Origin: an uncultured Rhodospirillales bacterium
Lineage (GTDB): Bacteria; Pseudomonadota; Alphaproteobacteria; CACIAM-22H2
Length of the DNA: 49,087 bases
Direction of reading: 5' to 3'
Assembly: GCA_903860935.1 (NCBI GenBank)
Contig: CAIOSQ010000274.1
Span: forward strand, 1 to 49,087
The notes under the pieces are model-generated. The model was not told where the DNA came from. It saw only the letters and a list, made by a program, of their open reading frames with translations, and ran no database searches. Positions 9,245 through 27,077 of this stretch are shown here, one piece after another. The position numbers were made by a program, and so were the translations under genes. Each line of letters opens with the position of its first letter. The first letter of the stretch is position 1.

Positions 9245-9309
9245 TGCGTGCGGCGCGGCACCTCTGATAGGATCGCATCCGTGAGGCGTCAGGCGGTGCG
9301 GCTTCGGCC

Positions 9310-10967: not shown

Positions 10968-11401
10968 ACGGCGCGGCATCCACCGGCGCTCTTTTCGTCA
11001 TCGCGGCCCTGCTCGTCGGGGCGGCGGCGTGGCCATGGCTGGCGACCGAAACTCCGGTCGCGATCGCCGCGGCGCCTGGCGCCGCCGCGCCGGTCGCGCT
11101 GCCCGCCGTCGATCCGCAGGCTCTCGCGACCGTGCTGGAGCGCCCGCTGTTTTCCGCCGGTCGCCGTCCGGCTGCGGCCGAGGGGGGGGCGCCCGCCGCC
11201 GCGCCGCGGTCCGCGCTGCGTGTCGAGGGCGTGGTCGACGCGGGCGGCAGGCGCCGGGCCATTCTCCGGCGCGAAGGGAGCGCCGCCAGCCTGCACCTTG
11301 CCGAGGGCGACACGGTCGATGGATGGGTCGTGCGCGCGATCTCGCCGGACAGGGTCGTGCTCGTCTCGCCGGCCGGAGAACTCGTCCTGCCGGCGCGCTG
11401 A
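10964..11401 (+). CDS. XpsN/GspC-like T2SS accessory protein
   Basis: N-terminal TM, ERPLFSAGRRP, LRVEGVV, L.EGDTVDGWVVRAISPDRVVL. This gene normally precedes the secretin in Xanthomonas/Caulobacter-type clusters. Confidence 0.7.
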   Translation: MNGAASTGALFVIAALLVGAAAWPWLATETPVAIAAAPGAAAPVALPAVDPQALATVLERPLFSAGRRPAAAEGGAPAAAPRSALRVEGVVDAGGRRRAILRREGSAASLHLAEGDTVDGWVVRAISPDRVVLVSPAGELVLPAR

Positions 11402-11409
11402 CGGCGCTG

Positions 11410-13407
11410 TCACTCCGCCGCGTGGGCGGGCGACGCGCCCGGCGCGTCGTCGCGGCGCGGCCGACGCACGGGCAGCGCGACGCGCCAGCGGCGGTCGGCG
11501 AGGCCGGTCAGTCCGCCGATCGCCATCAGGCCGGCACCGATCCAGATCCAGGGGACCAGCGGCTTCCAATAGGCGCGTACAACCCAGCTTCCGGACGGAT
11601 CCGGATCGCCCAGCGCGACATAGACGTCCGACAGAAGGTTGGTGCGGATCGCGGTGTGGCTGGTGACGCGGCGCTGCACCGTGAACAGGCGCCGCTCCGG
11701 ATGAAGCGTCGCGATCGTCGTTCCGTCGCGCGACAGCGTGATCGTGGCACGGTCCGCGAGGTAGTTCTCGCCGGTGCGCTTGTCGACGGCCTCGAGCTTC
11801 AGCGCGTAGCCACCGATCTCCACCGTGTCGCCCGGGCGCATGGCCTGGATCCGCTCGACCTCCCAGGCCGAGGCGGCGATGCCGAAGGTCGTGATCGCGA
11901 CACCCAGATGCGCGAGCGCCATGCCATGGGCCGCCAGCGGCCGGTGGCGGGCGCGGCGCAGGCTCTCGGCCAGCGGCGCGCGGAAGAGATGGATGCGGTC
12001 CGCCCATTCGACCAGCACGCCGACGGCGAGCCAGCAGGCGAGGCCAAGCCCGCCGATGGCGAGAAGAGGACCACCGCCGGTGGCGTAGAGGGCGACGCCC
12101 ATCAGGACGATCGCTGCCGCGAAGGCGAGCCACAGGCGTTGCAGGGCCCCCAGCGCATCGCCGCGCTTCCAGCCGAGGAACGGACCGACCGCAAGCGCAA
12201 GCAGCAGCGGAACCATCAGCGGCGAGAACGTGGCGTTGAAGAAGGGCGGTCCGACCGAGATCTTGCCGCCGCCCATCACGTCGACGATCAGCGGGTAGAT
12301 GGTGCCGATGAAGACGGTCGCCGTGGCGGTCGAGAGCAGGAGGTTGTTGAGGACAATGGCGCCCTCGCGCGAGACCGGCGCGAAGATCCCGCCGCCGCGC
12401 AGCGACGGCGCGCGCAGAGCGTAGAGCGTGAACGAGCCGCCGATCGCGGCCCCGAGCAGCAGCAGGATGAAGCTTCCGCGCGCGGGATCGACGGCGAAGG
12501 CATGGACCGAGGTGAGGACGCCGGAGCGGACCAGGAACGTACCCACCAGGGACAGGCTGAAGGCGACGAGGGCCAGCAGGACCGTCCAGGTCTTCAGCGC
12601 CTCGCGCTTCTCCACCACGATCACGGAATGCATCAGCGCCGTGCCGACCAACCAGGGCATGAAGCTGGCGTTCTCGACCGGATCCCAGAACCACCAGCCG
12701 CCCCAGCCCAACGTGTAGTAGGCCCACCAACTGCCGGTGGCGATGCCGATGGTCAGCGGGATCCAGGCGGCAAGCGACCAGGCGCGGACCCAGCGCGCCC
12801 AGAGCGCGTCGACACGCCCTTCGAGCAGCGCGGCGACCGCGAAGGCGAAGGTGATCGAGTAGCCGACATAGCCGAGATAGAGGAAGGGCGGATGGAAGGC
12901 GAGGCCCGGATCCTGCAGGATCGGGTTGAGGCCGCGCCCGTCCGCGGGCACGGGGAAGACGCGCAGGAACGGGTTCGACGTGGCGAGGATGAAGATCCCG
13001 AAGCCGGTGGCCACCATGCCCTGGATCGCGAGCACCCGCGCGCGCAACGTCTGCGGCAGTTCCGCGCCGAACACCGCGACGGCCCCGCCGAACAGCGCGA
13101 GGATGAGGATCCAGAGCAGCATCGAGCCCTCATGGTTCCCCCAGACGCCGGTGATCTTGTAGAGCATCGGCTTCGTGCTGTGGCTGTTCTCGGCGACGTT
13201 CGCGAGCGAGAAATCCGAGGTCGCGTAGGCGTGGACGAGGGCGAGGAAGCTGAAGGCGACGAACCCCGCCTGGAGCAGGGCGGAGGGTTGTCCCACCGCC
13301 ATCAGGTTGGGGTCGCCGCGCTGCGCCCCCCAGAGCGGGACCACCGCCTGGACCAAGGCGAGCATGGTCGCGAGGATAAGCGCGAAATGTCCGAGTTCGG
13401 CGAGCAT
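11410..13407 (-). CDS. ccmF: Cytochrome c heme lyase CcmF/NrfE family
   Basis: MLAELGHFAL, WGNHEGS, LNPILQD...HPP, WWD motif WGGWWFWDPVENAS, RSGVLTSVHAFA. Confidence 0.97.
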   Translation of the reverse strand: MLAELGHFALILATMLALVQAVVPLWGAQRGDPNLMAVGQPSALLQAGFVAFSFLALVHAYATSDFSLANVAENSHSTKPMLYKITGVWGNHEGSMLLWILILALFGGAVAVFGAELPQTLRARVLAIQGMVATGFGIFILATSNPFLRVFPVPADGRGLNPILQDPGLAFHPPFLYLGYVGYSITFAFAVAALLEGRVDALWARWVRAWSLAAWIPLTIGIATGSWWAYYTLGWGGWWFWDPVENASFMPWLVGTALMHSVIVVEKREALKTWTVLLALVAFSLSLVGTFLVRSGVLTSVHAFAVDPARGSFILLLLGAAIGGSFTLYALRAPSLRGGGIFAPVSREGAIVLNNLLLSTATATVFIGTIYPLIVDVMGGGKISVGPPFFNATFSPLMVPLLLALAVGPFLGWKRGDALGALQRLWLAFAAAIVLMGVALYATGGGPLLAIGGLGLACWLAVGVLVEWADRIHLFRAPLAESLRRARHRPLAAHGMALAHLGVAITTFGIAASAWEVERIQAMRPGDTVEIGGYALKLEAVDKRTGENYLADRATITLSRDGTTIATLHPERRLFTVQRRVTSHTAIRTNLLSDVYVALGDPDPSGSWVVRAYWKPLVPWIWIGAGLMAIGGLTGLADRRWRVALPVRRPRRDDAPGASPAHAAE

Positions 13408-13418
13408 GCCTTATCGTA

Positions 13419-16400
13419 TCAGCGTCGCGTTGCAGCCGGCACGAAATCACCCGGCCGACCCGTGGGGGAGACCGCGTAGGGCTTGCCGTCGCGGTCGATA
13501 TAAAGGCGGCGCTGTTCCTCCAGGGTGAAGGGGCGGGATCCGATGCGCCCGAACACCGCCACCTGACCGCCGCTCTCGTCGACGCCGCGGTCGCGTTCCA
13601 GCCCCCGCGACAGCGACAGCGCGGGCGTGCGCGTCTTGCGCCAAGCCACCAACTCGGGCTTGGGCTCGGGCGAGAAGCCGTAGAAATTCGGCTGGCTGTC
13701 CGGCGAGGTCAGTTGCACGACCTTGAGCCCGTTGGCGCCATCCGCCACATAGGCGAAGGCCGAGGCGTTGGTCGCGCCGATCACCACGTCGCGCGCGTCG
13801 TTGAGGCGCCCGCCATCGGTGAAGCGCTGGTGGACGCGCGGATGCTCGGGGCGCTCGACGTCGACGATCACGAGGCCCTCGCGGCCAGCCGCCACGTAGG
13901 CATAGGTGCGGGCGACCATCATGCGGTGCGCGTCGGCCATCGGGAGATGCGCCGAGGGCACCGGGCGCGGCGTCGCCGGCGCGGTGACGTCGATCACGTG
14001 CATGCCCTTCGTGTCGAGCGCGAAGAGGTAGCGGAACTGGATGGCGGTCGACCGCAGATCCGCGAAGGGCAGCGTCGCGAGGACCTTCGGCTCCAGCGGC
14101 TTGTCCATGTCGAGGACGACCAGCCCGGCGCGTGCCGCGATATAGAAATACCGGCCGGCGATGGTCAGGTGACGGGCCCCGTCGAGGATGCCGCCCGCGT
14201 TCCAGGTCAAGGCGCGGCGCAGGAAGTTGTTGCGCGGCTCCCCGTCGGCCAGCGTGTTGACGTCGGTCAGGATCAGGCCTTCCACGGAATCCGTGATGAA
14301 GGCGTAGTCGTAGATCGGGTGGAAGGGCTGCTCCTGGTTGAGCTCCTGCATCTTCGGATCGGCGCCGCGCGCCGGATGGATCGGCTGCGTCGTCGGTAGC
14401 ACGACGCAGGTCGCGTCGCGCGAGGCGATATGCGTGTCGTGACCGAGCGCCGCGAAGGGCGCGGAGATGATCCGTTGCGATACGCCCTTGTTGGCGATGC
14501 TGGCGACGTCGTAGACGCGCATGCCGCTCGACCCTTCGGCGACGAAGAGATATTCGCCGCGCAGCTGCAGGCATCCGACCTGCGCCGCGGTGCCGCGCGT
14601 ATCGGTCTCGGCCAGGGCGCGGCCGCGCGCGAGATGCTCGCCGTACCATTTCGGATAGGCATAGCGGTGCAGGTAGCTGCCGATGACCGCCTGCGGCTCG
14701 TCCCATTCGGTGACGCGCACGGCCTCGAAGCTGCGCTCGCCGCCGACCCAGGCGTTGAGCCCGACCATGTTGACGTAGTTGGTCCCGTGCAGGAGCAGCT
14801 GCGCCATGATCGCGTTGTTGTCGTTGGCTTCGGAGATGTGGCAGTCGGCGCAGCCCTTGGTTTCCGTCAGACGCTCGGTATGCGGATAATGCGGCGCGAA
14901 GGCCTGGCTCGAATAGCCGGCCGCGGAGATCGGTGGCTGTTGCGCGTAGATCCGCTCGCGGTTGATGTTGGTCGAGGACAGGACCAGGGCCGAAGTCGAG
15001 CGGATCGGCGCGATGATGTTGCCCTTGATCGTGCCGTGCCGGCCGAGTTGGAACATGTCGTCGCGCGCGACCTGCGGATTGTAGGTGGCGTAGTTGCGCG
15101 TCTCGCCGCCCTCGTAGTGATGGCGCTCGGTCTTGAAATTCGCCTCGATCGGAAGATGGCAGCCGCCGCAGCTCGTCGTCCAGGAGAGGTGGCAGGTGTA
15201 GCAGGCCAGTTCTTCGTCCTTGTGGGCGAGATCCGCCGCCGGGATGCCGGGACCCCATTTCATGGAGCCGTCGTTGCTCATCAGCTTGGCGCGCGCGGAT
15301 TTCGCGTTGTACTTGGCGTTCGCCGGATCGACGCTGTCCTTGACCAGCGACACCTCCCATTCGAGGTCCGGATACAGCGACGACCGCTGGAAGAGCTTGC
15401 CGTCGATCCACTCGAAGCGGGGGCGGCCGAAGCTCGTGCGCATGAGCGACAGGTCGGTGCCGCCGGGCCGCGCCGCGGGACCGGAGGTCCGCAGGCTCGG
15501 ATAGGCTTTCGACGTGCCATGGCAATCGGCGCAGCCGATCTCGATCGCCGCGGCGACCTCGCCATAGATGTGGCCGTTGCCGTGGCTGTCCTGGGCGAAA
15601 TGGCAGTCGACGCAGTGCATGCCGGCATCGACATGGATCGACGACATGTGGACCGCCTTCTTGAACTTCTCGGGGTCCTCCGGCGGGATCACGTTGTCGG
15701 CGGCGTCGAGCAGGTTGCCCTTGCGGTCGCGCTTGTAGATGGCGCGGAAATTCCAGCCATGGCCGTGGTAATCGGCGAACTGCGTGTCCTTCAAGTCGGG
15801 ATTGAGGGCGCTGACCTCGCGCAGGAAGGCCGGATCCGCCCAATTGCCGCGGACTGACGCGCCCTCGGGGTTGCGCCGCAGGGTCTTGGCGATTTCTTCG
15901 TCGGTCGGGAATTTCTGCTCGGCCGGAAACATCTTCGGGGCGTCCGGCTCGTAGTCGTACATGGTGTAGCCGAGCATGCTGTTGAGGAAGATGTTCGGCT
16001 GGTGCATGTGGCAGATCATGCACTGGCTGGTCGGGATCGCTTTCGTGAACTCGTGCTTGAGCGGGTGGCCGGAGCGGTCATGCGGGATCGTCGGGTCGAC
16101 CGTCTTTGACGTGCCGCGATTGCCGAAGCGGGCGTAGGGGCCCGAATGCTTCACGTCGCGGTCGTTGGCGTAGACGACGTGGCACGACGCGCAGCCCGAG
16201 CTGCGATAGTCGCCCGGCTGGTCGTTGGTGCCGAGGAACCACATGAACGGGTCGTTCAGGCGCGTCTTGGTGATGTTGAGTACGGGGATCGCAACACGCA
16301 GACCGGTCGCGGGGCCGCGATTCGATTGCTTGAGATCGGGGCGTCCCGGCTCCTCCAGGCGCTGGATCTGGCCGGTCACGTTGGGCAGGCCGATTTCCGG

Positions 16401-17165
16401 GAACTGGGTCAGGATGTTGCGCCCGCCGCGCTCGAAGACGCGGAACACGTCGGCCGGCGGCGTCACTTCCCAGGCCGGGAGCGGATAGAGTTCTGGCAGC
16501 AATCCGCGGCTGCGGGTCAGTTCGGGGCTGGGCTTAACCGGGGCCACCAGCTTCGCGGGCTGTCCGTCGCGCGTGTAGCCCTCGCCAAGGAGGTAGTTTT
16601 TGAACGGCAGGATTCCGTTGTTGTAGGACGCGCCGCCCCAGAGCATGGCGCCGGTCGCCATCAGGCTGCGCTCGGCGGCCTGGATGACCGTGAGATGGCA
16701 CGCGCCGCAGGCCTCGCGCGCGACGCGGTAGTCGCTGGGGTTCACGAAGCGGATGTAGTCGGGCGATTCCTTGTTCAGCAGCGTGTAGCTGCGGATGGGG
16801 TTGGCGCTGCCCGAGGCGGTCCAGAATTCGGGCAGGCGCGGCTGGACATGCGCCTTCGCCATCGCGGCGCCATAGGCGGGGCCGTCCTTGCTGCTTCCGG
16901 CGGGACGCATGACGCCCGCGTCACCCCCATGACAATCCGCGCAGCCGAGGACGACGGCGGGATTGCTGTGCATGTTCGCGGAATCGGATTTCTCGTGGCA
17001 GGTGAGGCATCCGGCGCTCTTTTCCGCCGCGCGGTCGGGATGCTGCCGATCGGGAGCCGGCGGGAAGAGCGGTGCCGAGGCGACGCGCGGGCCAGGGCCA
17101 TCGGCCGCCCAGCTCGACGGAACCGCGAAGACGATCAGGAGGAGCGCGAGGAGGAGAAGGCGCAT
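13419..17165 (-). CDS. Large exported decaheme cytochrome c with C-terminal LVIVD-repeat (beta-propeller-like) domain, 1248 aa
   Basis: Sec signal (MRLLLLALLLIVFAVPSSWA). Ten CxxCH (CLTCH, CADCH, CGACH, CASCH, CMICH, CVDCH, CADCH, CYTCH, CGGCH, CADCH). Repeats GMRVYDV, GLILTDV, GLVVLDM, GMHVIDV, GLVIVDV, GLKVVQL. Confidence 0.9.
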   Translation of the reverse strand: MRLLLLALLLIVFAVPSSWAADGPGPRVASAPLFPPAPDRQHPDRAAEKSAGCLTCHEKSDSANMHSNPAVVLGCADCHGGDAGVMRPAGSSKDGPAYGAAMAKAHVQPRLPEFWTASGSANPIRSYTLLNKESPDYIRFVNPSDYRVAREACGACHLTVIQAAERSLMATGAMLWGGASYNNGILPFKNYLLGEGYTRDGQPAKLVAPVKPSPELTRSRGLLPELYPLPAWEVTPPADVFRVFERGGRNILTQFPEIGLPNVTGQIQRLEEPGRPDLKQSNRGPATGLRVAIPVLNITKTRLNDPFMWFLGTNDQPGDYRSSGCASCHVVYANDRDVKHSGPYARFGNRGTSKTVDPTIPHDRSGHPLKHEFTKAIPTSQCMICHMHQPNIFLNSMLGYTMYDYEPDAPKMFPAEQKFPTDEEIAKTLRRNPEGASVRGNWADPAFLREVSALNPDLKDTQFADYHGHGWNFRAIYKRDRKGNLLDAADNVIPPEDPEKFKKAVHMSSIHVDAGMHCVDCHFAQDSHGNGHIYGEVAAAIEIGCADCHGTSKAYPSLRTSGPAARPGGTDLSLMRTSFGRPRFEWIDGKLFQRSSLYPDLEWEVSLVKDSVDPANAKYNAKSARAKLMSNDGSMKWGPGIPAADLAHKDEELACYTCHLSWTTSCGGCHLPIEANFKTERHHYEGGETRNYATYNPQVARDDMFQLGRHGTIKGNIIAPIRSTSALVLSSTNINRERIYAQQPPISAAGYSSQAFAPHYPHTERLTETKGCADCHISEANDNNAIMAQLLLHGTNYVNMVGLNAWVGGERSFEAVRVTEWDEPQAVIGSYLHRYAYPKWYGEHLARGRALAETDTRGTAAQVGCLQLRGEYLFVAEGSSGMRVYDVASIANKGVSQRIISAPFAALGHDTHIASRDATCVVLPTTQPIHPARGADPKMQELNQEQPFHPIYDYAFITDSVEGLILTDVNTLADGEPRNNFLRRALTWNAGGILDGARHLTIAGRYFYIAARAGLVVLDMDKPLEPKVLATLPFADLRSTAIQFRYLFALDTKGMHVIDVTAPATPRPVPSAHLPMADAHRMMVARTYAYVAAGREGLVIVDVERPEHPRVHQRFTDGGRLNDARDVVIGATNASAFAYVADGANGLKVVQLTSPDSQPNFYGFSPEPKPELVAWRKTRTPALSLSRGLERDRGVDESGGQVAVFGRIGSRPFTLEEQRRLYIDRDGKPYAVSPTGRPGDFVPAATRR

Positions 17166-17167
17166 CG

Positions 17168-19009
17168 TCAGAAGGTCAGCACGAGGTTGCCGAGGACGGA
17201 ATAGAGGAGCTTTCCGTCGGACTGGGTGCCGTTCCCGGACGTGTCATAAAGCGCCTCCAGCCCCTTGCCCGGCACCAGGATGGCGCCGGACAGCCGCGCC
17301 ACCACGTTCTGCGTGAAATAGGGACGGTAGATCAGCGCCGCCGAGACTTCCCAGCCGATGGCGGTGTCGATCTTGCCCTGGTTGCGCAGATATTCCAGCG
17401 ACGACGTGTCGACGAAGCTCAGCCGGTTGAGGTTGGTCGACAGCCGCAGTTCCGGCAGCAGGTCCATGTCCGTCCCGACGCCGAGCAGATTGAGCCCGGG
17501 ATTGACGAAATTCGACTGGCCTTCGTCCTTCGACGACCGCAGCGCGGGCAGCAATCCGTTGCGCGGCGAGAGCGTGACGCCGCCGCCGCCGATCAGCGGC
17601 ATGGCCTGCCGGATCCAGTAGCTTGTGTCCGCGCCGGCGAAGACCGGGTTCTCGAAGATCGCATCGAAGCCTGTGGCCACGCGGTCGCGCGGGTTGCGAT
17701 CGCCGCTGGCATGCAGCCCGGACAGGCGCACGCGCAGCCAGTCGAAATCCATCGACGCCTCGGCTGCGCCGAAATAGGCGCGGATGTCCTGGGGCTTGTT
17801 GTTGCCGGCGAACTGGTTCCGCTCGTCGCGGCCCAGCGCGTAGTAGATCGAGGAGGTCAGGTTGATCCGGCCGAAATGCCCGTCGCCGTTGAAGCCGAAA
17901 TAATTGACGATGTAATCGCGCCCGCGCTGGTCGCCGATGGTCGCCGGCCGCACCAGGAAGCCGTTCTGGTCGTAGTGCTGGGTGTCGCCCTCGTTGTTGC
18001 GGTTGAGGACGTAGGTGATCTGCGATGTGTGACCGAGCACGGGCAGATCCTGGCCGTAGAGGTTCAAGATCGCGATGTCGTCGTTGCGCAGCGGCGCCGA
18101 GATGTCGTTGAGGCCGCTGTTGGTCTCTTTCTCGATGCGACGGAAATAGGCGGCATTGTACTGGAACCGGTTGTTGTAGCGGTTGCCGAAGAGCCGCACG
18201 CCGAGCTGGTTGTCCTGGAACAGGAAGCCGCGGAAATCGGTCGAGAAGGGCTGGATCCCGACCCGCAGCGAGTCGAAATCGTAGCGGTCGGAGACGTTGC
18301 GCAGGTGGTAGTCGACGAAGGCTTCCTGAAGCCCGGTGAACCCGTCGGTACGCTGGGTTCCACGCCCGGGATCCGCGAACAGGGCGCCGACCTCTTCCGC
18401 CTTGACCCGGTTGTAGTTGACGACCGGCGTCAGCCGGATCTCGAAATCGGGCGGCTTGAAGGCCGTGTTGCCCTTGATGAGCGCCACGCTGGCGATGACG
18501 CTCTGGCTGAACACGGTCTGGGTGTAGCGGCCGAAGGTGTTGTTGGCGCCGGGCGTGGCGGTGCCCTGGTTGCCGACGGGGATGGGGACGCGGCGCGGCT
18601 CGAAGATCGTATCCGAGATCGCCGTGAGACTGACGAACCAGTCCTCTCCGAAGACCGGCTTGTCGCCCTTGATCGTGTTCGTGTTGTAGGGGTCGTAGAG
18701 TTTCTCCGGACCGAGCAGCGTGTCGAGCAGGCGCCAGCGGTCGGGGATGGGAAGGAATTCGCGCGGCAGCACCGGCGCGGGCGGCGGGACGGCGTTGGGA
18801 TCCGTGACCGGCTCGACCCGATCCTGTGCCGCGGGTCTGGGGGCGGGCGCCTGAGCCGGACGACGGCGCGGATCCTCGCTCGCCTGGGCGAGTTCGCTGC
18901 CTTGCACCGGCGGCGCGGGCGGCGGCGGTGGCGGCGGCCAGGACCGAGCCAGCGCCGGAAGGCTCAGGCCGACAAGGAGCGCCGCGGCGGTGGCCGGGAT
19001 CGGTTTCAT
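17168..19009 (-). CDS. Putative outer-membrane beta-barrel protein (613 aa)
   Basis: Real start MKPIPATAAALLVGLSLPALA overlaps the upstream stop (ATGA). Signal peptide, Pro-rich linker, many amphipathic strands rich in N/D/G/aromatics, terminal ...GNLVLTF (BAM-type C-terminal Phe). Confidence 0.8.
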   Translation of the reverse strand: MKPIPATAAALLVGLSLPALARSWPPPPPPPAPPVQGSELAQASEDPRRRPAQAPAPRPAAQDRVEPVTDPNAVPPPAPVLPREFLPIPDRWRLLDTLLGPEKLYDPYNTNTIKGDKPVFGEDWFVSLTAISDTIFEPRRVPIPVGNQGTATPGANNTFGRYTQTVFSQSVIASVALIKGNTAFKPPDFEIRLTPVVNYNRVKAEEVGALFADPGRGTQRTDGFTGLQEAFVDYHLRNVSDRYDFDSLRVGIQPFSTDFRGFLFQDNQLGVRLFGNRYNNRFQYNAAYFRRIEKETNSGLNDISAPLRNDDIAILNLYGQDLPVLGHTSQITYVLNRNNEGDTQHYDQNGFLVRPATIGDQRGRDYIVNYFGFNGDGHFGRINLTSSIYYALGRDERNQFAGNNKPQDIRAYFGAAEASMDFDWLRVRLSGLHASGDRNPRDRVATGFDAIFENPVFAGADTSYWIRQAMPLIGGGGVTLSPRNGLLPALRSSKDEGQSNFVNPGLNLLGVGTDMDLLPELRLSTNLNRLSFVDTSSLEYLRNQGKIDTAIGWEVSAALIYRPYFTQNVVARLSGAILVPGKGLEALYDTSGNGTQSDGKLLYSVLGNLVLTF

Positions 19010-20877
19010 GGCAGGCATGGGCTCTGTTCCAGGGAATCCAGGAAGGGAGCGAAGGGGCAATTCACATAGCGCAGCCGCGTGCCCTGGGGCTCCAGCGTGT
19101 CGGCGCGCAGCGGCGCCTGGTTGAGCGTGCCGCCGGCATTCTGGATCGCCAGATAGGCGATCATGTCGTCCTGGTCGATGCCGTCGCCGGAGACGCCGAC
19201 CGCGCCGACCAGCGTCGCGCCGCGATAGACCGGCACGCCGCCGGCGAAGATCTGCAGCCCGTTGGCGAGGCGCGTGCGGCCATCCGAGGCGACCGCGAGC
19301 CCAGCCGCACCGGGTCCGGCGCAGCCGGAGGCGGGCGGAGCGTTGCCTCCGAGCAGGGCCACGATGTTGCCTGCGACGAGATCGAGTTGGAACCCCGTCG
19401 CGAAGGGGCTCCAGGTCGCGAAGGGACGGCTGAGCGGACCGCTGGGACCGGCATTGATGCCGTCCGGATAGAAGGGGCGCGCGATGTTGCCGATCGCACG
19501 CGTCGTGAAGGCGATCCCGTCGGCGAGGGCGCCCGCGCCGAGGAAGGCGCGCGTGTCGGTCACGGTGGTCGCGAAGCCGCCGCCGAGCGCGGTGAGCTCG
19601 GCGCCGGTCTGCGGGCGCGACAGGAAGGCCGCGGAGCGCGCCTTCTGCACCGCGACATCCGTGCCGAAGACCGGCGCGTCGGGCGTGCGGGCGAGGGCAA
19701 GGACGTTGCCGTCGGCGTCGACGACGCTGACCGTCACCTGCGCGAAGCTGTCGGTCGGCTTGCGGATCTGGGCGCGCGCCCGGAACGCCGTCTCCAGGCC
19801 GCGCTGGACGAGCAGCCTGGCCTCGTTGGCGGTAAGCCCCGCGCCGCCGGCCGGGGCGAGCCCGGCGCGCGGCGCGAAACGGTTCGCCCCCGTCCCATCG
19901 TCCAGGACGAAGGCATTCAGGCCCGGATAGGTCGTGCCATTGTCCGGCCGGATCCCGGACGCGATCGTCCCGTATTCCTGGCCGGCGCGGACCGTGCCGT
20001 CGAAATAGCCGGTGACCGCAACGGCCGCGAAGGCGCCGGGTGCGGCGACAGCGGCGGCGAGCGCATCGCTGTCGACATAGCGCAGGGACCGCCCGACCAC
20101 CGTGATGTTGTCGGCGCGGATGGAGCCGGCGGGCCGGAAACCGGACGTTCCGGCGATCGCGATCAGCTCGTCGGTGTCGGTATCGAAGTCGAAGATGTTG
20201 CGGTCGAGCGTGTAGACCCCGTCGGCGACGATGCCGATCCCGCCCACCGGGGTGCCGTTCTTGTACAGCGGCAATCCGCCGGGATCGGCGGCGAGACCGA
20301 GCGGCGAGCGCATCGGCCCCGCGCCCGGCGTCGCGCGCACGACGTCGGAACAGGGCAACTGGCTGAACTGCACGCCGAAGAGCGGCCCGCCCATCTGGTT
20401 GAGTTCGCCGGGCAGGAAGTTTTCCTGCACGATCTGGCTGGCCGTGCGCGTCGAGAAGGCATTGCCGCCGGAGGACAGATAGGCACCCGTGATCGCCTTC
20501 GCGATCGCGGCGAGTTCGCCCGGAACGTCCGCGTCCTCGAGGCCAGCCCCGGTGATGCCGCGCTGCGATGTCACCCGCGCCGTCGCCGGCGCGCCCGCCA
20601 TGCGTGTGACGGCGAGGACGTTGCCGACCCGGTCGACGACCGCGATCGTGGCGGGTCGGTTGCGCGCAGTCGCTTCGTTCATCGCCTGCAGCACGATCGT
20701 GTTGACGTTGGCGACGGTAAGGAAGGGTGCCGGATCGTTGCTGCTGGCCGGCACGGAATCGGGCGATCCGCCGCCGCCGCCGCCGCAGGATGGCGCGCCA
20801 AGGAACAGCGCCGCCAGGAGGCAGAGCGCCGGCGGCAGCATGCGCCTGCTGGCGCGCGATCCGGTTGGCGTGGACAA
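19006..20877 (-). CDS. Putative lipoprotein with two GlcG/HbpS-type heme-binding domains (start may be ATG at 20841)
   Basis: Hydrophobic leader ending APSC, then a GGGGGGS linker. Two copies of the family signature: IAVVDRVGNVL...AIAKA...GGLPLYKNGTPVGGIGI and VSVVDADGNVL...AVQKARSA...GGVPVYRGATLVGAVGVSG...DD. Confidence 0.85.
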   Translation of the reverse strand: MSTPTGSRASRRMLPPALCLLAALFLGAPSCGGGGGGSPDSVPASSNDPAPFLTVANVNTIVLQAMNEATARNRPATIAVVDRVGNVLAVTRMAGAPATARVTSQRGITGAGLEDADVPGELAAIAKAITGAYLSSGGNAFSTRTASQIVQENFLPGELNQMGGPLFGVQFSQLPCSDVVRATPGAGPMRSPLGLAADPGGLPLYKNGTPVGGIGIVADGVYTLDRNIFDFDTDTDELIAIAGTSGFRPAGSIRADNITVVGRSLRYVDSDALAAAVAAPGAFAAVAVTGYFDGTVRAGQEYGTIASGIRPDNGTTYPGLNAFVLDDGTGANRFAPRAGLAPAGGAGLTANEARLLVQRGLETAFRARAQIRKPTDSFAQVTVSVVDADGNVLALARTPDAPVFGTDVAVQKARSAAFLSRPQTGAELTALGGGFATTVTDTRAFLGAGALADGIAFTTRAIGNIARPFYPDGINAGPSGPLSRPFATWSPFATGFQLDLVAGNIVALLGGNAPPASGCAGPGAAGLAVASDGRTRLANGLQIFAGGVPVYRGATLVGAVGVSGDGIDQDDMIAYLAIQNAGGTLNQAPLRADTLEPQGTRLRYVNCPFAPFLDSLEQSPCLP

Positions 20878-20880
20878 GGT

Positions 20881-22557
20881 CTAGCGCTCCTGTCGGATCT
20901 TGGTCATCGGTGCCGTCCCGTGGATGTGGAACCCGTGGCAGGATGTGCAGTCGCTGGGGACTTTGAGGGTCGCGTTGGCGGCGCCATGGCAGGCGACGCA
21001 GGTGCCGAGATCGGGTATCAGCACGTCGCTGCTGCTGGTCGACTGCTCGGCCTTGTGGCACTCGCCGCAGCCCATTGTAAAGTGCTGACCGTGGTCGAAG
21101 CGCGTCTTGGGAAGATGGCTGTCGAGCACGATGACGGGTTCGATCGAGACCGTCGCACCTTTGCGCGTGGCGATATGACACGAGGCGCAGCCGCGCCGCG
21201 GATCGAAGACGAGGTCGACGGCGGCGTCGACGCGCTGCTGGACCCAGGCACGCAGTTCCAGGCGCTCCGCCTCGGTCACGGGCTGACCGACCCGCAGGCG
21301 CGGCAGGCCCGCGGCGATCTCGGCGTCGCCGCCCTCGAGCGCGATGCGCGCATAGGCGTCGCGCAGATAGGCGTGCACGGCCTCGGGGTCGCCATGCGGA
21401 ACCGTGCGCTCGGGCGCCTTCGGGTCGAATTTCAGCGTGTGGCACCAGCCGCAATCGGTTTCGAAGCGCGTCGGCATGAAGCCCTGGCGACCGGCATCCG
21501 GGGCATGGCAGCTGGCGCAGTCGAGCTTGACCAGCCCTTTGGGCGACAGCACGCCACCCGTCTTGAGATGCGCGTCATGCGGGAATTTGAGCGTCGCGAG
21601 GTTCTTCGGCGGGGTCGGGCCGCTCAGGTCGACGCGTTCGAGGACCGGCCCCGTCGTGTCCTTCACGACGGTGACGCGGAAGGGCGGGTGGCCATCCGGG
21701 AAGCCGGTGACCGCGCGCAGATGGCTTCCCGCCATGCGTCCGTCGCCACCCGTATGGCAGTCTGTGCACAGACGGTCGTCGCGCAGGATCGACGCCTGGG
21801 CGCCGCGATGCTCGGTGTGGCAGTCGCCGCAGCCGGCATTGTCCAGCCCCGCCTTGCGCACCGCGTCGCCGATCGCATGGCCGGGCAGTCCGGTATGGCA
21901 TGCCGCGCAGGCCGAATCCGGCACCGAGGCGAAGGCCCGCTGGTGGCAGGCGCCGCAATCGGCGGCGAAGTGCTTATGGGCGTCGGAGATCTCGCCGACG
22001 GTCCAGCTGAGATCGGCGACGCGGGTCCAGCCTGGCTTCGGCACCGCATGGTCCGCACGTTGCGGGCCCCAGCCGAGGAAGCTTCCGACTGGAATGGCGA
22101 GGCCGAAAACGACCAGGAGCAGGAACAGCATCCAGGACGGCAGGCGTTTGCCCAGCCGGGTCCGCTCCAGCCCGATGCGGCTGGTCTTGCGCAGCCGGGC
22201 GAGATCGTCGCCCGGCGGATCGACCAACTCGATCGCGATCGCGGCGTCGTATCCCGCGCCTGGCGTATCGAGCGTCAGCTTGTAGGGGCCGATCCGGATC
22301 TCGTCGCCGGACACGACGAGGGCATTGGTCGTGGACTTGCCGTTGACGCGCACGTCGCCCGGCGCGGTCGCGCGCAGCCGCATGCCGCCGGCGTCCGGCG
22401 ACAGCTCGGCGGCGATCAGCGCGACGCGCAGGTCGGGCAGGCCGACCTCGTTGCCGGGGCCGCGCCCGAGATGCAGGACCGGCGCATCGGCTTCCGCCGT
22501 CCGCCGCGCGGGAGCGCCGCGTTCGCGCCGGGTGATGTAGCCGAGTTCAGCGCGCAT
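20881..22557 (-). CDS. Membrane-anchored decaheme cytochrome c (c3-like) with N-terminal FHA-like domain
   Basis: LHLGRGPGNEV...VRVNG...L.SGDEIRIGPY (FHA-like), one TM (WMLFLLLVVFGLAIPVG), then ten CxxCH (CGACH, CAACH, CGDCH, CTDCH, CASCH, CGWCH, CASCH, CGECH, CVACH, CTSCH) with FPHDAH/FDHGQH distal-His motifs. Confidence 0.88.
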   Translation of the reverse strand: MRAELGYITRRERGAPARRTAEADAPVLHLGRGPGNEVGLPDLRVALIAAELSPDAGGMRLRATAPGDVRVNGKSTTNALVVSGDEIRIGPYKLTLDTPGAGYDAAIAIELVDPPGDDLARLRKTSRIGLERTRLGKRLPSWMLFLLLVVFGLAIPVGSFLGWGPQRADHAVPKPGWTRVADLSWTVGEISDAHKHFAADCGACHQRAFASVPDSACAACHTGLPGHAIGDAVRKAGLDNAGCGDCHTEHRGAQASILRDDRLCTDCHTGGDGRMAGSHLRAVTGFPDGHPPFRVTVVKDTTGPVLERVDLSGPTPPKNLATLKFPHDAHLKTGGVLSPKGLVKLDCASCHAPDAGRQGFMPTRFETDCGWCHTLKFDPKAPERTVPHGDPEAVHAYLRDAYARIALEGGDAEIAAGLPRLRVGQPVTEAERLELRAWVQQRVDAAVDLVFDPRRGCASCHIATRKGATVSIEPVIVLDSHLPKTRFDHGQHFTMGCGECHKAEQSTSSSDVLIPDLGTCVACHGAANATLKVPSDCTSCHGFHIHGTAPMTKIRQER

Positions 22558-22581: not shown

Positions 22582-23466
22582 TCAGAAGTAGAAGAAGACG
22601 GCGACGACATGCGCCGTCAGGGCCGCCAGCAGGGCGAAGGACAGCGGCACGTGCAGATAGAGCCAGATGTCCATAAGCGCCTTGTAGCGGAGGTCGCGGC
22701 TGATCACGTCGAGATACTCCAGCCGCTCGCCGAGCAGGCCAAGGACGCGCTGCGCCTGTGCGCGCTGCTCGGGCACCGCGTCGGCGGCCGTGATGCGCCG
22801 CAGGGCGAGGCGCGTCGCGCAGTTCGGGCGCGTGCCGGAGAGCTGGCGCCATGCCGAGCCGCCGATCGCTACCTGGTTCATCGCCGCGAGGACGAGGCCC
22901 GCCTGCCGGTCGTCGAGACCAAGGGCGGCCTGACGCATGTCACCGTCGAGCGCGGCGATCTTCGCCATCAGATCGGACACCGTCGCGCCATGGCGGTTGC
23001 GGGTCATCTGCTCCGGCACCGCGGCATAGACGATCATGCCGAAGGCGCCGCTCGCGATCACCGCCATCATCAGCGCATAGGCGAGGGTGTGGATGTTGAG
23101 GCCGAACTCGAAGCCGGTATGCAGCGTCGCCACGACGATCAGCGCGAGGCCGAGATAGACATGCGCCGACAGCCAGCCCTGCAGGCGTCCGATGCGGCCG
23201 TAGGAGCGCTTGCGCATCCCGAACCACATCAACCAGAGGATCAGCGCGGCGCCGATCGTCCCCAGCGTGTACCCGAGCCAGGTGCCGCCGTTGGGCGCGG
23301 TGAGCGGGCGATGCAGTGCGTAGGCCAGGATGGTCGCGAGGCACAGCCAGATGCCCCATTTCAGGAAGCGGAACCCGCGATAGGCCAGGAAGGACTGGTG
23401 GATCTCGCCCGGGGGGATCCGCTTGCCGGCCGCGGCGGCGCCCGGCTTGGCCGTCGCGGCGCTCAC
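22582..23466 (-). CDS. Integral membrane protein, putative di-heme b cytochrome (ferric-reductase-like transmembrane domain)
   Basis: GTG start overlaps the upstream stop. About 5 TM segments. Two His pairs separated by 13 residues in TM helices: HVYLGLALIVVATLH and HVPLSFALLAALTAH. Confidence 0.75.
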   Translation of the reverse strand: MSAATAKPGAAAAGKRIPPGEIHQSFLAYRGFRFLKWGIWLCLATILAYALHRPLTAPNGGTWLGYTLGTIGAALILWLMWFGMRKRSYGRIGRLQGWLSAHVYLGLALIVVATLHTGFEFGLNIHTLAYALMMAVIASGAFGMIVYAAVPEQMTRNRHGATVSDLMAKIAALDGDMRQAALGLDDRQAGLVLAAMNQVAIGGSAWRQLSGTRPNCATRLALRRITAADAVPEQRAQAQRVLGLLGERLEYLDVISRDLRYKALMDIWLYLHVPLSFALLAALTAHVVAVFFYF

Positions 23467-25868
23467 GAGGCACCTCCGCGACGGATCATGGCGACGTATT
23501 CCTCTGGCCGCACGCGGATCGCCGCGCCGGTCGGACATGCACGCACGCAGGCCGCGCCACCTTCGATGCCATGGCACATGTCGCACTTCACCGCTTTCTT
23601 GCGGCTGGACTCGCCGCCATGGTGCTTCTTCGCCGCCTTGTTCTCTCCGGGGCCCGGGCCGCGGCCGAAGAACAGCCAGCTCAGCAGGCCGGGCTTTTCT
23701 TCCGCCGGAGCGGCCATCTTGATCACGCCATAGGGGCAGTTGCGCTCGCAATTGCCGCAGCCGATGCAGGTGTCGGCGATCGTCACCTCGCCGCTGGGCG
23801 CGCGCTTGATCGCGTCGGGCGGGCATTCCTTCATGCAACTCGGATGCTCGCAGTGGCGGCATGAGGTCGGCACGTGGATCGAGGCGAAGGTGGCCCCGGC
23901 CTCGCGATCCAGCCGCGAGATCCGGTCATGCGTCTCGGCGCAGGCCTTCTCGCAATTGTCGCAGCGGATGCACAGCGTCTCGTCGATCAGCAGCACGTCG
24001 GTGGCTTCGCCGAGGCCCTCGCGCATGAGGAAGTTGACGAGGGCACCGCTTTCGCTGTCGGCGGTCTGATGCGCGCTGCTGCGCACGCGCTCGCTGAATT
24101 TTTCCTCCACCCGGCGCCGCAATTCGGGGGCCGCGTCCAGCAGGTCTCGCACCGCGGCCGCAGGCAGCTTGATCACCTGGGTGGCCACGGCGGCCTTGAC
24201 CGATGCCGTGCGCGGCGCGTTGCGCAGCAGGGCCATCTCGCCGACATAGTTGCCCGCCGCGAGATAGGTGAGGACGACTTCCTGACCGCCGACCATGCGG
24301 GAGACCAGCACCGATCCCGAGCGGATCAGGTACATCGCGTCGTCGGTGGCACCTTCCTGGATCAGGATCTCGCCGGCCTTGAGCGAGACGATCTCCGCCT
24401 CGCGGATCACCGGCGCCAGGATGGCGCTGTCGAGATCCTGGCCGAGATAGCTCTTCACCACGCGCACGATCGCGACCTCGTCGATCGCGCGCGCCACGCT
24501 CGGCACCGAGCGCTGCAGTCGCAGCATGGTGTTGCGCGGCACCTCGAGCAGCAGCGCGCCATCGCGCGCGATCACCGTCGCGCCGCGACGGCGGCCCGAG
24601 AGGAGGCCGATCTCGCCGAAGAATTCGCCGCCGCGCAGCACCGGGTTTGCTGGCGCGCCGGCCTCGCCGATCAGAACCTCCACGCTGCCGTCGACGATGG
24701 CGTAGAAGCTGTTGGTGTAGTCGTTGCGCTCGAAGATCTTCTGTCCTGGCGCGGCCAGATGGACCTCCGATGTCAGGAGGAATTCGCGGATCTGCAGCGG
24801 CGAGAGTTCCGCGAAGACCGGCACCTGCTCGCGGATCGTCGCGATGAACGGGCTGACCGCGAGGCCGGGTTGCGCGGCGTCGAGCTTGGCCTGGATCAGC
24901 GGTTCGTCGGCCGGCGCCACCGGGTTGCCGAGGATGTACTCGACGACCTCGTAGCCCTGGTTCATGCATTGCTTGATCAGCGGATAGCCGGCCAGCGCGC
25001 CGATGATGTAGAGGCCGGGCACATTGGATTCGTAATGGTCGCTGACGACCGGGAAGGCCGACGGGCTGTCGCTTCCGAACACGATGCCGCAGGATTCGAC
25101 GAATTTGCGCGGCGGCAAGGCGCCGAGCCGCGCGATGACGCGGTCGCACCGGATTCGTGTCTCGCCATCCGCCGTGTCGACGGTCATCCAGCCTGGTTCG
25201 AGGCGCTTGGGCGCGGTGCGGACCATCGCCTGCATACGGCCGTCGGCGATCGCCGTCTGGAGGAGCTGGACGTTGGCCGGTTTGGCGTTGGGATACTCTG
25301 CACCGCGGTTGAGGATCGTCACCGTGTTGGCGTTGGACAGGACGAGGGCGTTCTCGATGCCGGCGTCGCCGGTGCCGACGACCACGATATGCTCGTCCTG
25401 GAATTCGTCGGGATCGTCCAACTGGTACTGGACGGACGGCAACTCGGCCCCGGGCACCGTGAGCTTGCGCAGATTGCCCTGGAGACCGATCGCGAGCACG
25501 ACCGCGCGCGCGCGCACGACGCTGCGATCGGCGAGGGTGAGGCGGAAATCGCCGCGTTCGCCCTTGATGCCGACGACCTCCGCGTTGAGCCGCACGTTGC
25601 ATCCTGCCGCCTCGACGCCGCGATCCCAGGTCTCCAGCACGGTCTCGCGCGAACCCTCGGCGAAGCCGACATCGGCGCGCAGCGGCAGGATGTCCGGCGT
25701 CGCCATGACGTGCTTGCGCCGCTGGTACTTGTAGATCGTGTCCGACAGGTGCCCGGTGCGCTCGAGCAAAACGTGGCTGACGCCGCGCGCGGCGGCCCTG
25801 GTGACCGCGGCGATCCCGCCCGGCCCCGAGCCGACAATGGCAATTTCGAAGATGTCGTCGCCGCTCAT
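23463..25868 (-). CDS. Fusion: TrxR-fold FAD/NAD(P)H oxidoreductase + two cNMP-binding domains + 4x[4Fe-4S] ferredoxin (DmsB/NrfC-like)
   Basis: GSGPGG FAD motif, GTGDAG dinucleotide motif, SNVPGLYIIG. Cassettes FFGEIGLL....RGATV and YVGEMALL....RTASV. Cys sets CIRCDNCEKAC, CRHCEHPSCMKECP, CIGCGNCERNCP, KCDMC...CVRACP. GGAGG RBS before the ATG at 25868. Confidence 0.92.
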   Translation of the reverse strand: MSGDDIFEIAIVGSGPGGIAAVTRAAARGVSHVLLERTGHLSDTIYKYQRRKHVMATPDILPLRADVGFAEGSRETVLETWDRGVEAAGCNVRLNAEVVGIKGERGDFRLTLADRSVVRARAVVLAIGLQGNLRKLTVPGAELPSVQYQLDDPDEFQDEHIVVVGTGDAGIENALVLSNANTVTILNRGAEYPNAKPANVQLLQTAIADGRMQAMVRTAPKRLEPGWMTVDTADGETRIRCDRVIARLGALPPRKFVESCGIVFGSDSPSAFPVVSDHYESNVPGLYIIGALAGYPLIKQCMNQGYEVVEYILGNPVAPADEPLIQAKLDAAQPGLAVSPFIATIREQVPVFAELSPLQIREFLLTSEVHLAAPGQKIFERNDYTNSFYAIVDGSVEVLIGEAGAPANPVLRGGEFFGEIGLLSGRRRGATVIARDGALLLEVPRNTMLRLQRSVPSVARAIDEVAIVRVVKSYLGQDLDSAILAPVIREAEIVSLKAGEILIQEGATDDAMYLIRSGSVLVSRMVGGQEVVLTYLAAGNYVGEMALLRNAPRTASVKAAVATQVIKLPAAAVRDLLDAAPELRRRVEEKFSERVRSSAHQTADSESGALVNFLMREGLGEATDVLLIDETLCIRCDNCEKACAETHDRISRLDREAGATFASIHVPTSCRHCEHPSCMKECPPDAIKRAPSGEVTIADTCIGCGNCERNCPYGVIKMAAPAEEKPGLLSWLFFGRGPGPGENKAAKKHHGGESSRKKAVKCDMCHGIEGGAACVRACPTGAAIRVRPEEYVAMIRRGGAS

Positions 25869-25881
25869 CGCTGCCTCCACG

Positions 25882-25946
25882 CATCCCCTGCCGCCAGCCA
25901 TCCCTGCCGCCAGCCATCCCTGCCGCCAGCCATCCCTGCCGCCAGC
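25882..25946. repeat. Tandem repeat, 4 x 16 bp (CATCCCTGCCGCCAGC)
   Basis: Copies at 25882-25898 (one extra C), 25899-25914, 25915-25930 and 25931-25946, read directly. Confidence 0.95.
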
Positions 25947-26148
25947 ACGATTTACGCCCGCCCGCGGGCCTCACGCGCCGTCCATCTCTGGCCGCGCGCG
26001 CGGGATCGTCGGCCCATGTGCCGGCATGTCGCAGGCAACAGGTTATTGCGTGTGGCGATTCCGGAAAAGGATTTAGCGAACTTGCCCGGTGTCCTGCATT
26101 CGACCGACATTGGCGGCTGCCATGCATCCAGCACGCCGGAGCCCGCCA

Positions 26149-27077
26149 ATGACCAACTGCTTCTGTCCCACCCGGCTTGCCTGGACCATGATCCGGGGCC
26201 CGGACATCCGGAATCGCCGGCCCGCCTGCGCGCCGTACTCGCGGCCCTCTCCGCGCCGGGCTTCGCGGGGCTCGCCCGCGCCGAGGCGCCGCGCGCCGGG
26301 ATTGATCTGCTCGAACTTGCCCATCCGCGTCGCCATGCCGAGGCGCTGCTGGCGGCGGTTCCGGCCTCCGGTCACGCGCGGGTCGATGCCGACACGGTGG
26401 TGAGCCCGGGGTCCGGCGAGGCGGCGCTGCGCGCCGTGGGCGCCGTCGTGGCCGCCGTCGACGCGGTGATGGCGGGGACCGCCCGCAATGCCTTCTGCGC
26501 CGTTCGCCCGCCCGGTCACCACGCCGAGGCCGGTACCGCCATGGGCTTCTGCCTGTTCAACGCGGTCGCGATCGGCGCGCTGCACGCGCGGCGCGCCCAT
26601 GGGGTGAGGCGGGTGGCGGTGGTCGATTTCGACGTGCATCACGGCAACGGCACCCAGGCGATCCTGGAGGGCGATCCCGGCTTCTTTTTCGCCTCGACCC
26701 ATCAGATGCCTCTTTACCCGGGCACCGGCGACCCGGCCGAGCGTGGCGTGGCGAAGAACGTGCTCAACGTGGCATTGCGACCGCACGCGGATGGCGATGC
26801 GTTCCGACGCGCCATGACCGAGCGGGTGCTGCCGGCGCTCGATGGCTTCGCGCCGGAACTGATCCTGGTGTCGGCCGGCTTCGACGCCCATCACCGTGAC
26901 CCGCTCGCCGCGATCGATCTCGAGACCGAGGATTACGGCTGGGCGACGACCGCGATCGCCGAGGTCGCGGCGCGGCACGCAGGCGGGCGGCTGGTCTCAT
27001 CCCTCGAGGGCGGGTACGACCTCGTCGCCCTTGGCGAGTCGGCCGCGGCCCATGTCACGGCGCTGATGGCGGCTTGA
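26149..27077 (+). CDS. Histone deacetylase family amidohydrolase (5' end ambiguous, possible 1-nt frameshift)
   Basis: GHPESPARL, VRPPGHHAE, MGFCLFN, DFDVHHGNGTQ, SAGFDAH..DPL, LEGGY. The RBS-preceded ATG at 26149 is out of frame; an in-frame ATG exists at 26016. Confidence 0.9.

What the first reader, a model, noticed from the sequence alone, without database searches (positions are those of the whole stretch)
22582..23466. Small membrane protein with a ferric-reductase/NOX-type di-heme signature; with its neighbour it resembles a split, cNMP-regulated NOX-like module
Seen: His codons at 23163/23121 and 22653/22611 form two pairs, each exactly 14 codons apart and each within one TM helix, with a long soluble insert between the two helices. 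Established: FRE/NOX/MsrQ transmembrane domains bind two b hemes using such His pairs on two helices. Inference: this protein moves electrons across the inner membrane from the translationally coupled flavo-FeS protein to the anchored decaheme, with cNMP playing the role that Ca/EF-hands play in NOX5.
Basis: partly seen in the sequence, partly recalled or inferred. Interest (0 to 1): 0.72.

Follow-up and report, generated by a model that had tools for sequence, protein, structure and literature searches.

The report
Probable two-heme membrane electron wire
This gene encodes a protein with five predicted membrane helices and four conserved histidines; it likely holds two hemes and passes electrons from a flavin/iron-sulfur enzyme inside the cell to a ten-heme cytochrome outside, an idea published for related proteins in 2017 and apparently still untested, and it is not an NADPH oxidase.

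Summary
Observation confirmed. ORF 22582-23466(-) encodes 294 aa, with H102/H116 and H272/H286 each 14 apart on predicted TM3 and TM5. All four are present in 119 of 119 close homologs and 131 of 138 diverse ones. Covariation puts TM3 and TM5 in the histidine register. Two details were missed: TM4 also lies between the pairs, and a fifth histidine (H126) is conserved.

The reading is largely published. He et al. 2017 described five-helix inner membrane proteins of PCC3/PCC4 clusters with two WX3HX13H motifs as likely di-heme b relays, and a 2023 preprint named PtdF. Our profile aligns end to end with proteins from such clusters (99.75%), but ours forms a separate clade.

Added here: natural fusions of flavin-cNMP-FeS with this domain, and a different flavin fold from PCC4-type clusters.

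NOX membership fails: no FNR-fold domain, no sixth helix, His119/Thr178 absent. Fold searches were inconclusive. Heme binding, electron direction and cNMP gating are untested. The scan found this family before on other genomes.

The parts
22582..23466 (-). 294-aa protein with five predicted TM helices; predicted di-heme b relay; sister clade of the PCC4 inner membrane protein / PtdF
23161..23163 (-). H102 on TM3, cytoplasmic side; predicted ligand of the inner heme, with H272
   Evidence: ligation inferred
23119..23121 (-). H116 on TM3, periplasmic side; predicted ligand of the outer heme, with H286
   Evidence: ligation inferred
23089..23091 (-). H126, a fifth conserved His at the periplasmic start of TM4; specific to this clade
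   Evidence: 136 of 138; not a conserved column in the 20 PCC3/PCC4-type proteins
22651..22653 (-). H272 on TM5, in the WxxxHx13H motif
22609..22611 (-). H286 on TM5
22681..23016 (-). Soluble helical insert (residues 151-262) between TM4 and TM5, predicted cytoplasmic; an insert of similar length is present in the PCC3/PCC4-type relatives
23463..25868 (-). 801-aa partner: TrxR/YpdA-like FAD domain without CxxC, two cNMP-binding domains, and a ferredoxin domain with 16 invariant Cys (predicted four [4Fe-4S])
20881..22557 (-). 558-aa FHA-like domain, one predicted TM helix and 10 CxxCH motifs (membrane-anchored decaheme)
   Evidence: (FHA-like hit weak, E 0.01)
19006..20841 (-). HbpS/GlcG-like protein with a probable lipoprotein signal
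   Evidence: PF03928 E 4e-23; start; signal read from the sequence
17168..19018 (-). Protein of about 612 aa with no Pfam match; putative outer-membrane beta-barrel (inferred from the sequence pattern only)
13419..17165 (-). 1248-aa protein with 10 CxxCH motifs and LVIVD repeats
11410..13407 (-). CcmF/NrfE heme lyase; a second copy (57% identical) lies on contig C252
1397..2707 (-). c554-like tetraheme cytochrome, related to the tetraheme of PCC4/ptd-type clusters; probably part of the system

Best explanation
The gene encodes a protein with five predicted membrane helices and four conserved histidines that likely binds two b-type hemes and likely relays electrons from the upstream flavin/iron-sulfur protein in the cytoplasm to the downstream membrane-anchored decaheme in the periplasm. 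Proposed path: NAD(P)H to FAD (TrxR/YpdA fold), to four [4Fe-4S] clusters, to the inner heme (H102/H272), to the outer heme (H116/H286), to the decaheme and on to the other multiheme proteins of the operon. Shown: the ORF, His conservation, gene order, fusions and domain content. Predicted: N-in/C-out topology and a TM2-TM5 bundle. Inferred: heme binding, physical partners and outward direction (NAD(P)H is the low-potential end, recalled). Speculative: the two cNMP domains between FAD and FeS gate the flow, and the cytoplasmic insert docks the partner.
For: His conservation and 14/14 spacing. Positive-inside pattern: mean K+R of 5.1 in loop 2-3, against 0.5 and 0.15 in loops 1-2 and 3-4; this puts H102/H272 inside and H116/H286 outside. 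Covariation on 307 sequences (Neff 214): TM2-TM3, TM3-TM4 and TM2-TM5 pairs lead the list, and A113-L283 (rank 8) has the same offset of 170 as both His pairs. Small residues flank the hemes' place: G69 and G140 in 138 of 138, G83 in 131 of 138. Pfam clan hints: PF01292 in 88 and PF01794 in 12 of 138 members at E<=0.1. Synteny in 80 loci: decaheme 78, flavo-FeS gene 73. In an even sample of the class, the decaheme is adjacent in 27 of 27 and the FeS domain in 25 of 27 close hits. 5 of the 7 loci lacking the flavo gene nearby were checked, and all 5 genomes hold it elsewhere (4 near full-length, 1 partial). Full flavin-cNMP-FeS-membrane fusions exist: P0275 (three records, 99.4-100% identical) and P0183 (60% identical to it). 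Other fusions join the domain to FeS+flavin (P0284, P0287), cNMP+FeS (P0282) or a pentaheme domain (P0283, P0285). The same role was proposed for homologs in PMC5566968.
Against: No experiment on this family was found in the searches run. No Pfam family passes its cut-off for this protein. Profile-profile probabilities against FRD, cytochrome b561 and cytochrome b samples were all below 25%. In 5 of 80 loci (beta/gammaproteobacterial by record title) the flavo gene is unlinked. Both full fusions fall in one small subclade with unfused relatives. Direction of flow cannot be read from sequence.
Confidence: 0.62

Rival explanations
1. The protein is a quinone-reactive cytochrome b. It exchanges electrons between the multiheme chain and the quinone pool (the model of He et al. 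2017, possibly for electron uptake), and the flavo-FeS protein is a side branch.
For: Proposed for homologs in PMC5566968. 14/14 spacing is as in bc1 cytochrome b. The decaheme is the tighter neighbour (78 vs 73 of 80). H126 near the outer heme could bind a quinone (inference).
Against: A cytoplasmic FeS or flavo-FeS gene precedes the gene in 18 of 20 distant loci, one more (L116) has a divergent FeS-flavin gene, and several natural fusions join them. That pattern fits a soluble NAD(P)H-linked donor better than quinone. H126 is not conserved outside this clade.
Confidence: 0.2
2. It is a functional NOX analog. The outer heme reduces O2 to superoxide under cNMP control, with H126 standing in for NOX His119.
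For: Same TM3/TM5 topology as the ferric reductase domain (PMC3591440). The fusions give a NOX-like order of regulator, flavin and membrane hemes in one chain. An extra conserved His lies on the outer side.
Against: The His119 position holds His in 13 of 138 (Glu here) and the Thr178 position holds Thr in 18 of 138 (Ser here) (register set by the heme histidines). A decaheme gene follows in 78 of 80 loci and is the obvious acceptor.
Confidence: 0.06
3. The module is mainly a redox-sensing or signalling device: the hemes report periplasmic redox state to the cytoplasmic cNMP, FHA-like and insert domains, with little bulk current.
For: Two cNMP domains have invariant pocket residues (71 of 71). 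The decaheme carries an FHA-like cytoplasmic domain, and the operon encodes an HbpS-like protein. The helical insert is conserved.
Against: No output domain (kinase, DNA-binding, cyclase) was recognised in the operon. A cyclase-like gene lies within the fetched flanks in only 4 of 80 loci. Twenty c-heme motifs and an extra heme lyase are a large cost for a sensor (inference).
Confidence: 0.08
4. The histidines bind something other than heme (a metal, or nothing), and the protein is a membrane scaffold.
For: No known heme-protein family matches above cut-off.
Against: Two Hx13H pairs in register on parallel helices, flanking glycines and strict conservation across distant clades are the pattern of bis-His di-heme proteins (PMC3591440).
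Confidence: 0.04

Closest known systems
Conserved inner membrane protein (IMP) of PCC3/PCC4 clusters, He et al. 2017 (PMC5566968; passages, section 16 and two supplements read)
   Same: About 300 aa, five TM helices, SGXXG on TM4 (S139-G143 here), and WX3HX13H on TM3 and TM5 (W98/H102/H116, W268/H272/H286). It lies between a PF13247 FeS gene and a decaheme. Our profile aligns over 258 columns with 20 proteins from clusters of that architecture (99.75%, E 2.9e-27).
   Different: Separate clade (SH-aLRT 98, against 95 for the 18 PCC4-type rows; quick tree). Extra H126. The operon has no pentaheme; it has an HbpS-like protein and an LVIVD decaheme instead. The published sequences could not be compared directly, because the supplementary table gave no readable rows; the match is by motif and gene architecture.
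PtdF of ptdABCDEFG (bioRxiv 10.1101/2023.11.21.568154; section 8 and passages read, supplements not available)
   Same: The order cNMP-FeS gene, ferric-reductase-like membrane gene, decaheme gene. Loci with the ptd order are hit by our profile (e.g. L121).
   Different: In the two ptd-type loci scanned, the flavin enzyme is a separate FNR-fold protein with a 2Fe-2S domain (PF00175/PF00111). Here a TrxR/YpdA-fold domain is fused to the cNMP-FeS protein.
Ferric reductase domain superfamily: NOX, FRE, MsrQ/YedZ, STEAP (PMC3591440, sections 12 and 14 and passages; PMC11031084, passages)
   Same: Four His on TM3 and TM5, the same predicted topology for TM1-TM5, Gly at the Gly179 position, and an insert where NOX has its D-loop.
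   Different: Five helices instead of six; 14/14 spacing against 14/13 in NOX2; an insert of about 112 aa; no FNR-type dehydrogenase; His119 and Thr178 absent.
Cytochrome b of bc1 (PF00033) and prokaryotic cytochrome b561 / hydrogenase-formate dehydrogenase b subunits (PF01292)
   Same: Predicted four-helix di-heme core. 14/14 spacing as in cytochrome b. PF01292 is the most frequent weak Pfam hit (88 of 138).
   Different: The b561 sample mostly has one Hx13H pair (26 of 30), whereas this family has two. Profile probabilities are below 25% for both families.

Membership tests
PCC3/PCC4 IMP (PtdF-like) superfamily | Five predicted TM helices, about 300 aa | tested here: met
PCC3/PCC4 IMP (PtdF-like) superfamily | WX3HX13H on TM3 and TM5; SGXXG on TM4 | tested here: met
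   definition
PCC3/PCC4 IMP (PtdF-like) superfamily | Full-length homology to IMPs in clusters of PCC3/PCC4 architecture | tested here: met
   hhalign 99.75%, 258 columns; loci identified by architecture, not by published accessions
PCC4 / ptd cluster in the strict sense | Cytochromes with 4, 5 and 10 hemes, a porin and a separate FAD/NAD(P) oxidoreductase | tested here: not met
   Genome frames with 3 or more CxxCH have 3, 3, 4, 4, 10 and 10 motifs, none has 5; the flavin domain is fused and of another fold
Ferric reductase domain (PF01794) | Four His on TM3 and TM5 | tested here: met
Ferric reductase domain (PF01794) | Profile match above the family cut-off | tested here: not met
   No PF01794 hit for this protein or this genome; 12 of 138 relatives at E<=0.1, best 0.001
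Ferric reductase domain (PF01794) | Shared fold | tested here: inconclusive
   lists filled by generic helical bundles
Ferric reductase domain (PF01794) | Binds heme b | not testable with these tools
   needs spectroscopy
NADPH oxidase (NOX) | FNR-family FAD/NADPH dehydrogenase domain | tested here: not met
   Partner matches PF13738/PF07992 and TIGR04018 (below cut-off), with no PF00970/PF00175/PF08030 among the listed hits; definition
NADPH oxidase (NOX) | Six TM helices | tested here: not met
   five helices; the chain ends 8 residues after H286
NADPH oxidase (NOX) | His101, His119, Thr178, Gly179 signature | tested here: not met
   H102 and G140 present; E120 and S139 in place of His and Thr; 13 and 18 of 138 in the family; definition; register inferred from the heme His
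NADPH oxidase (NOX) | Produces superoxide or H2O2 | not testable with these tools
   needs an assay
Prokaryotic cytochrome b561 (PF01292) | Profile match above the cut-off | tested here: not met
   11.7 bits against a cut-off of 30.1

The most novel reading that the evidence does not exclude
Bacteria have independently assembled a NOX-like machine from different parts: a TrxR-fold flavin, two cyclic-nucleotide sensors, four FeS clusters and a five-helix di-heme domain, sometimes in one chain. It switches an NAD(P)H-fed electron conduit across the envelope on and off with cAMP or cGMP. That would be direct second-messenger gating of transmembrane electron export, widespread in proteobacteria not known for it.
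Probability: 0.25. Interest if true: 0.8.

Novelty: new variant of a known kind. Interest (0 to 1): 0.4.

Why it matters
The family is large: more than 6000 hits at 90% clustering, and 28 of 401 sampled genomes of the class carry the close form. It has no Pfam model of its own and, in the searches run, no biochemistry. If the path is right, many Sphingomonadales and other proteobacteria carry an NAD(P)H-fed electron conduit that bypasses quinone. The single-chain fusions (P0275, P0183) offer a convenient object for testing heme content, direction and cyclic-nucleotide gating. The core idea of the finding, a di-heme b relay, has been in print since 2017, which limits the surprise.

Tried and rejected
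Sequence search of the PDB: no hit for the single protein; 24 hits with the profile, best E 0.083, all to the helical insert.

Foldseek: no match at E<=0.001 for the full model or for a TM1-TM4 model. VIA-align wide gave generic helical bundles, best Z 10.0 and 8.2. The only di-heme proteins among the 50 rows were E. coli superoxide oxidase 5oc0 (Z 8.1, rmsd 3.3, 130 aligned) and designed 4D2, 7ah0 (Z 8.1, rmsd 2.6, 103 aligned); both are below what the tool treats as meaningful for bundles. No FRD structure was listed, which does not exclude the fold.

Profile-profile comparisons with 30 PF01794, 30 PF01292 and 25 PF00033 sequences gave 0.5-24% and did not rank the families.

Complex prediction of the membrane protein with the FeS domain and two hemes: no verdict (0.26, 0.70, 0.31; mark 0.32). 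It is not used as evidence either way.

ESM Atlas hits at 0.94-0.97 are named 'ferric reductase like' or hypothetical and are probably this same family; they are not independent.

17 RNA runs hold part of the three-gene stretch (best share 0.29).

7 of 14 long hits (P0274, P0276-P0281) were dropped as frameshift-like, and P0286 is truncated. No homolog without the insert was found among the proteins fetched. Linkage to a nucleotide cyclase was rejected (4 of 80). The 426-aa ATG-started reading 22582-23862 was rejected, because its extension overlaps the upstream gene and homologs start near residue 20. The His counts are circular (rows were filtered for two Hx13H) and are not used. PMC5459824, bioRxiv 2022.05.06.490989 and PMC9900912 (passages read) did not describe this gene family. 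The careful tree did not finish; the quick tree is quoted.

Full report
The gene. Window 22582-23466 on the minus strand is an open frame of 294 codons with the codon bias of real genes here. Its GTG overlaps the stop of an 801-aa gene upstream, and a 558-aa gene starts 24 bases after its stop. Hydropathy and an AlphaFold2 model from 138 sequences (pLDDT 92.8) give five membrane helices: about 33-51, 63-88, 92-117, 125-150 and 265-292. A helical soluble insert lies between the fourth and fifth. Basic residues cluster before TM1, in loop 2-3 and at both ends of the insert, which predicts N-in, insert-in, C-out. H102 and H272 then lie near the cytoplasm, H116 and H286 near the periplasm.

More than chance. 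Two WxxxHx13H motifs occur in 1 of 100,000 shuffles and in 1 of 11,018 long frames of the genome, this one. All four His are kept in 119 of 119 close homologs and 131 of 138 rows of a diverse set; the seven misses look frameshifted. A fifth His, H126, is kept in 136 of 138. I could not read model coordinates, so I tested packing by covariation on 307 sequences. The top pairs link TM2-TM3, TM3-TM4 and TM2-TM5 as antiparallel neighbours. A113-L283 links TM3 and TM5 with the offset of 170 that also separates H102-H272 and H116-H286. This is one pair, at rank 8, so it supports but does not prove that the histidines face each other.

Neighbourhood. The upstream protein has a TrxR/YpdA-like FAD domain, two cNMP-binding domains and a ferredoxin domain. 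In 71 aligned sequences none has a CxxC in the flavin domain, 16 Cys of the ferredoxin domain are invariant, and the Gly-Glu and Arg of both cNMP pockets are invariant. Downstream come an FHA-like, membrane-anchored decaheme, an HbpS-like protein, a protein without family match that looks like a beta-barrel, an LVIVD-repeat protein with 10 CxxCH, and a CcmF with a second copy elsewhere in the genome. Among 80 loci the decaheme is present in 78, the flavo-FeS gene in 73, the LVIVD cytochrome in 53, the HbpS-like gene in 50 and the barrel in 48; many loci are cut by contig ends. In 42 of 71 loci a possible start overlaps the flavo gene's stop by 1 or 4 bases; this is an upper bound, as the nearest start was chosen. 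For 5 of the 7 loci without the flavo gene nearby I searched the genome and found it in all 5. The close form occurs in 28 of 401 genomes of the class, this one included.

Fusions. A search for longer proteins gave 14 hits: seven look like frameshift artefacts, one is truncated and six are clean. P0275 joins flavin, two cNMP, FeS and the membrane domain in 1136 aa, and the fusion is seen in three near-identical records. P0183, from the representatives search, does the same at 60% identity. Other clean fusions pair the membrane domain with cNMP+FeS, with FeS+TrxR-like flavin, or with a pentaheme domain. This is the best evidence that the 'split module' is one functional unit. Both full fusions lie in one subclade with unfused relatives, so they may be local events.

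Prior description. He et al. 2017 (PMC5566968) describe inner membrane proteins of PCC3 and PCC4 clusters: five helices, SGXXG on the fourth, and WX3HX13H on the third and fifth. They compare these with the ferric reductase domain and cytochrome b and propose two b hemes. A preprint (10.1101/2023.11.21.568154) names ptdE (cNMP, 4Fe-4S), ptdF (ferric reductase-like) and ptdG (decaheme) and calls the function unknown. To test kinship I fetched the 20 best of 29 weaker matches. All 20 have both motifs, and 18 follow a cNMP-FeS gene. Fifteen have cytochromes with 4, 5 and 10 hemes in view, and two lie beside cytochromes with 21-55 hemes. Their profile aligns end to end with ours (99.75%). A quick tree of 60 rows separates our clade (98) from the PCC4-type (95) and PCC3-type (100) rows. 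So this protein belongs to the published superfamily but to a different branch, marked by H126 and a different operon. In two PCC4-type loci the flavin enzyme is FNR-fold with a 2Fe-2S domain, while here and beside the PCC3-type locus L116 it is TrxR/YpdA-fold: the electron input module appears to be exchangeable. Searches found no experimental test and no description of this exact operon; a 2025 preprint says PCC3 is untested. The library lacks most subscription journals, and the supplements were unreadable or closed. Earlier scan reports reached the same reading on other genomes; I had found both papers before that look-up.

Is it a NOX? NOX needs a six-helix ferric reductase domain and an FNR-type dehydrogenase, and is marked by His101, His119, Thr178 and Gly179. 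This protein has five helices, its partner has another flavin fold, and it has Glu and Ser at the His119 and Thr178 positions. The 14/14 spacing fits bc1 cytochrome b (23 of 25 sampled) better than PF01794 proteins (2 of 30). Family, profile and fold searches did not place it securely in any solved family. It is therefore not filed as a NOX. It may still work like one up to the outer heme, with a cytochrome instead of oxygen as the acceptor.

Mechanism and verdict. Most likely (0.62): NAD(P)H to FAD to four FeS clusters to two b hemes to the decaheme. Rivals are a quinone-linked cytochrome b (0.2), a redox sensor (0.08), a superoxide source (0.06) and a non-heme scaffold (0.04). cNMP gating is plausible from the position and conservation of the domains but untested, and cyclase genes are not consistently linked (4 of 80). 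Interest 0.4.

Noticed in passing
window 25882-25946 (minus strand): Four head-to-tail copies of a 16-base unit lie in the leader just upstream of the flavo-FeS gene (seen by eye).
   Followed up: no
window 1-468 (+) and contig C31 9920-10897: The window begins with the C-terminal part of a second copy of the tetraheme gene (61% identical to 1397-2707), and the end of C31 holds a 77% identical N-terminal part; probably one duplicated gene split between contigs.
   Followed up: partly
window about 3285-11401 (+): A run of genes that read like a type II secretion cluster (ATPase, inner membrane platform, pseudopilins; labels recalled, no family scan) sits between the tetraheme and CcmF genes. 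Such systems export surface cytochromes in Shewanella (recalled).
   Followed up: no
L116:11110-12444: A PCC3-type cluster has a divergent gene for a 4Fe-4S plus TrxR/YpdA-like flavoprotein next to its membrane gene, suggesting PCC3 may also have an NAD(P)H-linked input.
   Followed up: partly
L048:3259-5532, L068:1138-3351: CHASE2-adenylate/guanylate cyclase genes lie upstream in two betaproteobacterial loci; cyclase-like matches occur in only 4 of 80 loci and at five places in this genome.
   Followed up: yes
L024, L030, L031 and other Sphingomonadales loci: The three inner genes stay together, while the HbpS-like, barrel and LVIVD genes form a second unit on the opposite strand a few kb away.
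   Followed up: partly
P0183, P0275, P0178, P0262: In one search the fused proteins show an extra basic, polar insert in loop 2-3; the unfused relatives of the same subclade are also longer (314-324 aa).
   Followed up: no
window 26109-27077 (+): A histone-deacetylase-family gene is transcribed divergently from the operon.
   Followed up: no
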